A program made the translations under genes and the position numbers. A stretch of 64,000 bases of DNA from the human T2T-CHM13v2.0 reference genome, Homo sapiens, in assembly GCF_009914755.1 (NCBI RefSeq), contig NC_060926.1. One strand, 5' to 3'. Positions 34,786 to 35,038 of this stretch are shown here, one piece after another. Below the pieces are notes generated by a model that saw nothing but the letters and a program-made list of their open reading frames with translations, was not told where the DNA came from and did no database searches. Numbering within the stretch: the stretch's first letter is position 1; each line of letters starts with the position of its first letter.

Positions 34786-35038
34786 AGACTTTACACATGT
34801 TTCATTGAAAAACACTTTAAGCATTATACTATAAGGCTAACTTTATGTGGCACTAGACCATAAGCATCCTTAGAAGTGGACACAGGCTGGGCACGGTGTC
34901 CCAGCTTGGGATTACAGGCATGAACCACTGCGCCCAGCCTGTGTCCACTTCTAAGGATGCTTATGGTCTAGTGCCACATAAAGTTAGCCTTATAGTATAA
35001 TGCTTAAAGTGTTTTTCACTGAAACATGTCGAAAGTCT
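34786..35038. repeat. Long inverted repeat with 113-bp arms (34786-34898 / 34926-35038) and a 27-bp spacer
   Basis: Base-by-base comparison gives 87 bp of perfect complementarity and 5 mismatches in total. Confidence 0.97.

What the first reader, a model, noticed from the sequence alone, without database searches (positions are those of the whole stretch)
34786..35038. Fold-back palindrome with an 87-bp perfect stem that captured unique flank DNA and split an Alu head
Seen: the arms 34786-34898 and 34926-35038 are reverse complements with 5 mismatches and are perfect over 34806-34892. They consist of ~99 bp of non-repeat intron plus the first 14 nt of an Alu. The spacer holds the apparent original turning point (tccca-gct-tggga, 34899-34911). 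The right side retains Alu nt 1-33 inverted, the left side has lost ~14 nt next to the centre, and the Alu body resumes at 35041. The two Alu-head copies carry different CpG decays (gcacgg vs gcgcag) while the flank part is identical. Inference: a template-switch/fold-back inverted duplication after or during Alu insertion, stabilised by an asymmetric central deletion, possibly with arm-to-arm gene conversion. It would form a long near-perfect dsRNA hairpin in ZNF385B pre-mRNA (a Drosha/Dicer/ADAR substrate, i.e. a de novo small-RNA locus candidate) and a DNA cruciform. The host gene belongs to a family of RNA-binding matrin-type zinc fingers, so autoregulation is conceivable but speculative.
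Basis: partly seen in the sequence, partly recalled or inferred. Interest (0 to 1): 0.8.

Follow-up and report, generated by a model that had tools for sequence, protein, structure and literature searches.

The report
Inverted duplication hairpin inside an intronic Alu
A 132-base piece of a ZNF385B intron, made of unique DNA plus the start of an Alu repeat, was copied backwards next to itself, leaving a real long hairpin-forming palindrome that looks like a rare, unusually long DNA copying error and not a gene.

Summary
Arms 34786-34898 and 34926-35038 are 113 nt, with 5 mismatches, an 87-bp perfect core and a 27-nt spacer. The arm DNA occurs nowhere else in this genome. The ZNF385B-sense RNA folds at -202.7 kcal/mol, z = -28.

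Anatomy: an old Alu (body 35041-35290, A-tail to 35316) is framed by an 11-nt target-site duplication, 9 of 11 matching. A reverse copy of 99 nt of upstream flank plus Alu nt 1-33 sits inside the Alu at about nt 33.

The arms carry 2-3 non-CpG changes; the Alu body carries 12-13 of 214. So the copy formed in roughly the last sixth to quarter of the Alu's residence, not during insertion (P = 0.004-0.019).

Best reading: a template-switch (fold-back) mutation turning at the Alu's own short quasi-palindrome, now a neutral deep-intronic relic. The same motif shows 18 short switches genome-wide and 2 other flank-capturing palindromes.

The "stabilising central deletion" is one of two equally parsimonious reconstructions. 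Evidence for gene conversion is weak. Nothing supports a microRNA: no Rfam family, and the stem is three times the usual length. This is a new, unusually long member of a known kind.

The parts
34360..34657 (-). Upstream full-length Alu in minus orientation (T-run 34360-34378). It forms a head-to-head inverted pair with the Alu that hosts the palindrome.
   Evidence: (I1: 133-nt arms 86% complementary; I3). In the 991-nt fold it pairs with the downstream Alu body.
34786..34884 (+). Left arm, unique intron flank (99 nt). Its last 11 nt (34874-34884, AAGTGGACACA) are the 5' target-site duplication of the Alu.
   Evidence: (single-copy in the genome).
34885..34898 (+). Left arm, Alu nt 1-14 in the original orientation.
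34899..34911 (.). Turning point TCCCA-GCT-TGGGA. It coincides with the Alu's native quasi-palindrome TCCCA-GCACTT-TGGGA (nt 29-44) but has 3 nt fewer in the loop.
   Evidence: The native form is seen in the window's own Alus.
34907..34939 (-). Inverted copy of Alu nt 1-33. It retains the 14 nt (nt 15-28) that the left head lacks.
34940..35038 (-). Inverted copy of the 99-nt flank, including the inverted target-site duplication at 34940-34950.
   Evidence: (97% to the original).
35039..35040 (+). Two A residues at the return junction that belong to neither template (filler).
35041..35316 (+). Remainder of the host Alu, from nt 33 (AGCACTTTGGG...) to its 26-nt A-tail (35291-35316). It is old: 1 CpG in 252 nt, and 12-13 of 214 non-CpG differences from a majority of other Alus.
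35315..35325 (+). 3' target-site duplication AAGCGGACCCA. It matches the 5' copy at 9 of 11 positions; one difference is CpG to TpG.

Best explanation
This is a mutational scar, not a gene.

An Alu inserted into this ZNF385B intron in plus orientation and became framed by an 11-nt target-site duplication. Much later, in about the last sixth to quarter of the time since insertion, a DNA polymerase copying the Alu head left its template at the Alu's own short quasi-palindrome (TCCCA...TGGGA, nt 29-44). It then copied the same-sense strand backwards for about 132 nt: Alu nt 33-1, the target-site duplication, and 88 further nt of unique flank. It returned to the original template at Alu nt 33, with two filler A's. 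In the four-point template-switch model this is an event of the inverted-repeat-creating type.

The centre then either lost 14 nt + 3 nt, or was asymmetric from the start. Either way the present spacer is 27 nt.

The product sits more than 7 kb from any annotated exon. When the intron is transcribed, it should fold into a 113-bp, nearly perfect RNA duplex nested inside an inverted Alu pair. The most likely fate of that RNA is nuclear A-to-I editing and intron decay, with no dedicated function.

Shown: the anatomy, the uniqueness of the arm DNA, the fold energies, the relative age, and recurrence of switches at the same Alu motif elsewhere. Inferred: the polymerase switch itself, absolute dates, and editing.
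For: - Arms, mismatches and spacer.
- The arm DNA is single-copy in the genome, so this is not a transposon. The junction 20-mer is unique in the genome.
- The right head equals Alu nt 1-33 and the body resumes at nt 33.
- The target-site duplication (9 of 11) frames the whole composite, and the inverted arm carries the 5' version of it. The flank-Alu junction therefore existed before it was copied.
- Relative age: arms 2-3 events over 210 lineage-sites versus body 12-13 of 214, P = 0.004-0.019, ratio 0.16-0.25.
- The five arm differences and the 14-nt asymmetry rule out a sequencing fold-back chimera, which would be a perfect copy.
- The same Alu motif is a recurrent switch site. The pattern GTAATCCCAG-N0-10-CTGGGATTAC has 18 sites against 0 for the reversed control. 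All 15 fetched lie in Alus, with arms of 10-14 nt.
- The pattern 'forward head 14-mer, 20-50 nt, inverted head 14-mer' has 5 sites against 0 control. 3 of the 5, this one included, have arms that run past Alu nt 1 into flank.
- Published template-switch events average 11.6 bp, with per-person maxima of 97-180 bp in unmasked DNA and 318 bp overall (10.1101/2021.11.26.470150, passages). About 132 nt is therefore extreme but within range.
- Hairpin folding.
- No Rfam family anywhere in the window at gathering score.
Against: - No outgroup or second human assembly could be examined. The ancestral, unduplicated state is inferred, not seen.
- The centre does not fit a single clean switch. Every reconstruction needs two further small changes.
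- Return point 4 (nt 33) lies 1-2 nt before switch point 1 (nt 34-35) in one reading. Löytynoja and Goldman did not observe that order (PMC5453318, passages). The overlap is, however, within breakpoint ambiguity.
- The mismatches avoid the middle 87 bp. That could mean homogenisation, in which case the age estimate is only a lower bound.
- Two of the four CpG copies at head nt 8-11 are intact while the body keeps 1 CpG in 252 nt. This is unexplained.
- Neutrality is assumed; expression, editing and small-RNA data were not available.
Confidence: 0.8

Rival explanations
1. The event is as described, but much older. The arms have been kept alike by intra-palindrome gene conversion or by repeated template switching between the arms, so the low divergence does not date the event.
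For: All 5 mismatches lie in the outer 20 nt or the inner 6 nt of the arms. P(perfect run of at least 87 in 113) is 0.003 for 5 independent mismatches. Both arms share the TpG state of the target-site duplication where the 3' copy keeps CpG.
Against: Two of the mismatches are at hypermutable CpGs and two are adjacent, so possibly one event. With 2-3 independent events P rises to 0.04-0.15. Mismatches near junctions can also come from error-prone synthesis at the switch (my inference; no call). The shared TpG is equally explained by decay before the duplication.
Confidence: 0.2
2. The inverted copy was made during Alu retrotransposition itself: a fold-back of the second strand, or a template jump of the LINE-1 reverse transcriptase at the end of target-primed reverse transcription.
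For: The turning point lies only about 34 nt from the Alu 5' end, where second-strand synthesis would start. The copied piece begins exactly in the Alu head and runs into the upstream flank.
Against: The arms are 4-6 times less diverged per lineage than the Alu body (P = 0.004-0.019). The 5' target-site duplication in both arms differs at 2 of 11 positions from the 3' copy. The 18 short switches at the same motif include the right Alu monomer, far from the 5' end, so no link to integration is needed.
Confidence: 0.06
3. The hairpin is a functional RNA element. It could be a young hairpin-RNA or microRNA-like small-RNA source, or a selected double-stranded RNA that recruits ADAR or other dsRNA-binding proteins, possibly ZNF385B itself.
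For: The sense-strand hairpin is extremely stable (-202.7 kcal/mol). Template switches are a documented route to new primate microRNA hairpins (PMC10710096, passages). Editing favours longer duplexes with small loops (PMC11838218, passages).
Against: No Rfam family reaches threshold; the best hit is 31.9 bits against a gathering score of 100. The stem is 113 bp, against a roughly 35-bp preference and the 30-55 criterion used for microRNA-like hairpins. The RefSeq table supplied with the finding lists no microRNA here. The arm sequence has no other genomic copy, so there is no extended trans target. The site is deep intronic, more than 7 kb from any exon. Two literature searches on ZNF385B found nothing relevant.
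Confidence: 0.06
4. It is an assembly or sequencing artefact, such as a fold-back chimeric read incorporated into the assembly.
For: Fold-back chimeras exist in long-read data (general knowledge). Only one assembly was available here.
Against: A technical fold-back gives identical arms. Here there are 5 substitutions, including two different CpG decays, a 14-nt asymmetry and 2 filler bases. The structure is far shorter than a long read.
Confidence: 0.01

Closest known systems
Short-range template-switch mutations (four-point model; Löytynoja and Goldman 2017, PMC5453318; Löytynoja 2022 preprint 10.1101/2021.11.26.470150)
   Same: [quoted passage not shown] The switch sits at a pre-existing short quasi-palindrome, as in the classical Ripley model those papers quote (passages).
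   Different: The length is about 132 nt, against a mean of 11.6 bp. It lies in and beside a repeat, which those scans masked: the word 'Alu' occurs 0 times in the main texts of the four template-switch papers I searched. The centre carries extra small changes. The ancestral state was not seen here.
De novo microRNA hairpins created by template switching (Mönttinen et al. 2023, PMC10710096)
   Same: It is a one-step creation of a perfect hairpin inside a transcribed intron of a primate gene.
   Different: Those hairpins have 30-55-nt stems and are annotated, expressed microRNAs (passages). This stem is 113 bp, matches no family and has no expression evidence.
Inverted Alu pairs (IRAlus), the main human double-stranded RNA and A-to-I editing substrate
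   Same: It is an intronic long duplex, and it is itself nested in such a pair (34360-34657 with 35041-35316).
   Different: 88% of each arm (99 of 113 nt) is unique DNA, and the arms are 96% complementary, against 85-86% for the surrounding Alu pair. The dsRNAscan preprint counts non-repetitive predicted duplexes at only about 2 per Mb (PMC11838218, passages).
Unstable long DNA palindromes (PATRRs; centre-break revision)
   Same: It is a long, near-perfect, closely spaced inverted repeat. A central asymmetry is what centre-break revision is said to leave (mentioned in PMC3300023, passages).
   Different: The arms are 40% G+C, whereas PATRRs are more than 90% A+T and several hundred bp long (review PMC7999016, passages). 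No translocation or polymorphism is known for this site. The 27-nt spacer falls between the 12-bp spacer that stalled forks and the 52-bp spacer that did not, for 320-bp Alu repeats.
Plant 'inverted duplication' model of young MIR genes, and animal hairpin-RNA endo-siRNA loci
   Same: A long, nearly perfect fold-back arises by inverted duplication of local DNA.
   Different: Those hairpins are copies of a target gene elsewhere. Here the arm has no other genomic copy. The plant paper (PMC3237417) was seen only in a search listing. The rest of this comparison is recalled.

Membership tests
Template-switch mutation (four-point model) | A fragment that is the reverse complement of immediately adjacent sequence | tested here: met
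   113-nt arms, 108 of 113 complementary. With the gapped head the inverted copy is 132 nt.
Template-switch mutation (four-point model) | Colinear sequence resumes after the inverted fragment (return to the original template) | tested here: met
   The Alu body resumes at nt 33 at 35041. The target-site duplication frames the whole composite.
Template-switch mutation (four-point model) | An ancestral or outgroup sequence lacking the inverted fragment, with one event explaining the difference | not testable with these tools
   No primate or second human genome is held. Only the relative age was estimated.
Template-switch mutation (four-point model) | Switch-point order in which point 4 does not precede point 1 | tested here: inconclusive
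   Point 4 is at nt 33 and point 1 at nt 34-35 in one reading. This 1-3-nt overlap (AGC) is within breakpoint ambiguity. The alternative reading (1 = nt 14, 4 = nt 33, 2 = nt 44) is the allowed 3-1-4-2 order.
Canonical pri-microRNA | Stem of about 35 bp with single-stranded flanks and an apical loop of at least 10 nt | tested here: not met
   The stem is 113 bp and continues into further pairing in the longer fold. The criterion is quoted from PMC10710096.
Canonical pri-microRNA | Match to a described microRNA family | tested here: not met
   The best hit is mir-789 at 31.9 bits against a gathering score of 100. There are 0 hits at gathering score in the whole window.
Canonical pri-microRNA | Discrete ~22-nt reads; DROSHA/DICER dependence | not testable with these tools
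DNA transposon / MITE | Multiple dispersed copies with terminal inverted repeats | tested here: not met
   The arm DNA matches only its own locus, 2 places (the two arms), in 3.1 Gb. The junction is unique.
PATRR | More than 90% A+T; several hundred bp | tested here: not met
   Arm G+C is 0.40 and total length is 253 bp. The definition comes from PMC7999016.
Hairpin-RNA / inverted-duplication siRNA locus | Arms derived from, and complementary to, a target gene elsewhere | tested here: not met
   No other genomic copy of the arm was found.

The most novel reading that the evidence does not exclude
The Alu's internal quasi-palindrome (TCCCA...TGGGA, present in both monomers and in more than a million copies) may be a genome-wide nucleation site for template switching. 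Occasionally the switch would run on for over 100 nt and capture unique flanking DNA, creating a small, undescribed class of 'Alu-head fold-back palindromes'. Under this reading the ZNF385B copy is the best preserved of these, is kept nearly perfect by arm-to-arm homogenisation, and yields a heavily edited double-stranded RNA or small RNAs in cells that express ZNF385B.
Probability: 0.08. Interest if true: 0.6.

Novelty: new member of a known kind. Interest (0 to 1): 0.3.

Why it matters
The locus shows that the short-range template-switch process, catalogued so far almost only in repeat-masked scans with a mean length near 12 bp, can copy about 132 nt. It can also carry unique DNA into a repeat, producing in one step a 113-bp near-perfect duplex in a gene's intron.

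The genome-wide side result is that the same Alu motif carries 18 short switches and at least 3 long ones. This suggests Alus are an overlooked substrate for the process, and so a possible steady source of new hairpins and of palindromic fragile DNA.

For ZNF385B itself nothing suggests a consequence.

Tried and rejected
- Known RNA family: an Rfam E-value scan of 34000-35800 gave only sub-threshold generic microRNA-hairpin and Alu/7SL hits. The whole window at gathering score gave 0 hits.
- Dispersed repeat or MITE: rejected by the genome search.
- Recurrent identical junction: the 20-mer at the centre is unique.
- Two independent Alu insertions, or a simple inversion: rejected. The inverted head is followed by an inverted copy of the same flank and target-site duplication, while the original copy is still present.
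- A Fisher test was mis-specified: I doubled numerator and denominator, which gave p = 0.24. It tests the wrong hypothesis and is replaced by the binomial test.
- CpG retention as a clock: abandoned. Head CpGs have been exposed since insertion under every scenario.
- The script stopped at L021, which has no self-complementary hit, so L023 was not run there. Both had only 14-nt arms.
- Only 15 of the 18 sites were fetched and examined.
- Literature on this locus: ZNF385B + 'inverted repeat' gave 1 unrelated paper. ZNF385B + 'RNA editing' gave 5 unrelated papers by title and abstract. The broader searches found no description of this locus or of Alu-head fold-back palindromes.
- Not available: earlier findings of the scan were not open. 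The Lewis 2005 paper on the NF1 intronic palindrome is not held. One paper reading failed on a badly formed term and was not repeated.

Full report
**1. Is it there?**

Yes. The repeat finder returns arms 34786-34898 and 34926-35038: 113 nt, 96% complementary, 27 nt apart. It is the top close inverted repeat of the whole 64-kb window. The only others are a TA-rich microsatellite block near 52.6-53.1 kb and a 57-nt, 79% pair at 33426-33590.

A base-by-base comparison gives five mismatches (34793, 34794, 34805, 34893, 34895) and a perfect run 34806-34892 of 87 bp. Pairing ends abruptly at both outer and inner ends.

The ZNF385B-sense (minus) RNA of 34780-35045 folds into one hairpin at -202.7 kcal/mol. 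Shuffles give -66.4 +/- 4.9, so z = -28, with 0 of 200 shuffles as good. Single-stranded DNA gives -127.8 kcal/mol, z = -28.

**2. Anatomy**

I used the window's own full-length Alus as a ruler. The numbering agrees with the Alu consensus as I recall it. Left to right:

| Coordinates | Content |
|---|---|
| 34786-34884 | 99 nt of flank |
| 34885-34898 | Alu nt 1-14 |
| 34899-34911 | Centre TCCCA-GCT-TGGGA |
| 34907-34939 | Alu nt 33-1, inverted |
| 34940-35038 | The 99-nt flank, inverted |
| 35039-35040 | Two A's |
| 35041 onward | Alu from nt 33 |
| 35291-35316 | 26-nt A-tail |

A gapped alignment shows that the left head lacks exactly 14 nt (nt 15-28) that the inverted head keeps.

The flank is single-copy. 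A search of the whole 3.1-Gb assembly with 34700-34884 finds only the locus itself and its inverted copy, which is 97% identical. The centre 20-mer is also unique.

The 11 nt before the Alu head (34874-34884) match the 11 nt that begin in the end of the A-tail (35315-35325) at 9 of 11 positions. One of the two differences is CpG versus TpG. This is the target-site duplication of an Alu that originally ran uninterrupted from 34885. The inverted arm carries the 5' version of the duplication (34940-34950). So an existing flank-Alu junction was copied backwards and placed inside the Alu.

**3. When?**

The Alu body is old. It has 1 CpG in 252 nt. It also shows 12-13 differences at 214 non-CpG positions from a majority of 52 other Alus, or of the 12-30 most similar ones.

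If the arms dated from the insertion, they should carry about as many changes over their 2 x 105 non-CpG sites. They carry 3, or 2 if the adjacent pair 34793-34794 is one event. The conditional binomial P is 0.004-0.019, and the age ratio is 0.16-0.25.

If the Alu is a few tens of millions of years old, the duplication would be very roughly 5-11 million years old, with a several-fold uncertainty. That Alu age is my recollection for this level of divergence and does not come from a call. All of this assumes no homogenisation of the arms.

**4. How?**

The pattern is a nearby stretch copied in reverse complement, after which colinear sequence resumes. That is the definition of a template-switch mutation in the four-point model (PMC5453318, passages).

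The turning point coincides with a 5-bp quasi-palindrome that every Alu carries (TCCCA-GCACTT-TGGGA, nt 29-44). It is visible in the window's Alus.

I tested whether this motif is a recurrent switch site in the same genome.

- The pattern GTAATCCCAG-N0-10-CTGGGATTAC has 18 sites, against 0 for the reversed control.
- All 15 sites I fetched lie inside Alus, in the left or right monomer. There the native quasi-palindrome has been extended to perfect arms of 10-14 nt, after which the Alu continues. These are short, classical switches.
- A second pattern (a forward 14-nt Alu head, then 20-50 nt, then an inverted 14-nt head) has 5 sites, against 0 control. They are this locus and four others.
- Two of the four others also have arms that run beyond Alu nt 1 into flank.
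  - G000:C7:23274322 has 93-nt ungapped arms (86 of 93) inside a roughly 700-nt self-complementary region of 86%.
  - G000:C10:24545882 is a 113-nt palindrome of 87% whose centre still has the native loop.
- The remaining two have only the 14-nt arms.

So the ZNF385B palindrome is the best-preserved of at least three long events of one kind. These counts are lower bounds, because the patterns are exact.

**5. The centre**

Two reconstructions each need three events.

- (A) Fold-back at the native quasi-palindrome, as at the chr10 locus, followed by loss of nt 15-28 on the left and of 3 nt (ACT) from the loop. It would fit the centre-break revision of palindromes mentioned in PMC3300023 (passages).
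- (E) An asymmetric switch from nt 14 directly to the complement of about nt 44. This is order 3-1-4-2 in the four-point model, reported as 1% of events. In it, nt 15-32 were never deleted but were replaced by their inverted copy; two small changes in the loop are then still needed. The chr7 locus has exactly this nt-14 junction, with no further change needed.

I cannot choose between them. Only an orthologue with an intermediate state could.

At the outer end, two A's (35039-35040) match neither template.

**6. Gene conversion?**

All five mismatches lie at the arm ends. P(perfect run of at least 87) is 0.003 for five independent mismatches. But two are at CpGs and two are adjacent, and with 2-3 independent events P is 0.04-0.15. 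This is a hint, not evidence. Error-prone synthesis near switch points is an alternative (my inference).

**7. What does it do?**

Most likely nothing specific.

- It lies 7.5 kb and 9.7 kb from the nearest annotated exons.
- It is nested in a head-to-head inverted Alu pair, 34360-34657 with 35041-35316. The whole 991-nt stretch folds as one composite structure at -673.5 kcal/mol (z = -52 on 20 shuffles).
- No Rfam family reaches its gathering score anywhere in the window. Around the hairpin there are only weak, generic microRNA-model hits, the best being 31.9 bits against 100.
- The stem is three times the roughly 35-bp length that pri-microRNA processing prefers. It is also outside the 30-55-nt criterion used for template-switch-born microRNA-like hairpins (PMC10710096, passages).
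- The arm has no other genomic copy that could be a trans target.
- Long duplexes with small loops are the favoured editing substrates, and 96% of predicted duplexes in protein-coding loci are intronic (PMC11838218, passages). Nuclear A-to-I editing followed by intron decay is therefore the expected fate. This is inference; no expression data could be consulted.

As DNA, the 27-nt spacer sits between the 12-bp spacer that stalled forks and the 52-bp spacer that did not, for 320-bp Alu repeats. Some residual instability is possible.

**8. Comparison and novelty**

The kind is known: template-switch mutations, including those that create hairpins and microRNAs.

What is unusual is the length. 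It is about 132 nt, against a mean of 11.6 bp, with per-person maxima of 97-180 bp in unmasked DNA and 318 bp overall (10.1101/2021.11.26.470150, passages). The capture of unique DNA into an Alu is also unusual.

The four template-switch papers I searched never mention Alu in their main text. They either masked repeats or filtered them out.

Searches for this locus found nothing:
- ZNF385B with 'inverted repeat': 1 unrelated paper.
- ZNF385B with 'RNA editing': 5 unrelated papers.
- Two broader searches.

**Verdict:** this is a real feature and a new, extreme member of a known mutational kind. The functional claims are unsupported. Interest is modest.

Noticed in passing
L004-L018 (15 of 18 sites in G000): Short template switches at the Alu quasi-palindrome, in both monomers. 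The native TCCCAG...GGGA has been extended to perfect 10-14-nt arms, after which the Alu continues. There are 18 sites against 0 for the reversed control. The motif looks like a recurrent switch site that repeat-masked scans would miss.
   Followed up: partly
L020 1180-1880 (G000:C7:23274322 region): A roughly 700-nt self-complementary region (86%) centred on an Alu head. The left head stops at nt 14 and is followed directly by the inverted head from about nt 45. The arms contain a 27-nt spacer and a whole further Alu. It is an older, larger event of the same kind.
   Followed up: partly
L022 1480-1592 (G000:C10:24545882 region): A 113-nt palindrome (87%) whose centre keeps the native Alu loop (CAGCACTT). 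Its arms run 21 nt into A/T-rich flank. It is a clean fold-back at the native quasi-palindrome.
   Followed up: partly
window 33426-33590: A 57-nt inverted repeat, 79% complementary, with weak sub-threshold similarity to the mir-548 model (29.1 bits against a gathering score of 90). It looks like a decayed MADE1-type element; that name is recalled.
   Followed up: partly
window 52600-53100: A TA/CA-rich microsatellite block that produces dozens of overlapping 70-90% palindromic matches. It is low-complexity DNA, not a discrete palindrome.
   Followed up: no
window 34892-34896 and 34928-34932 versus 35041-35292: Each Alu-head copy keeps one intact CpG (2 of 4 CpG copies at nt 8-11), while the 252-nt body of the same Alu keeps only 1 CpG. 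The head CpGs have survived unusually well. This is unexplained.
   Followed up: partly
window 34793-34794 / 35030-35031: The two adjacent arm mismatches are a tandem double transversion (AC versus CG), 8-9 nt from the outer junction. They could be a single multinucleotide error made at the switch rather than later drift.
   Followed up: no
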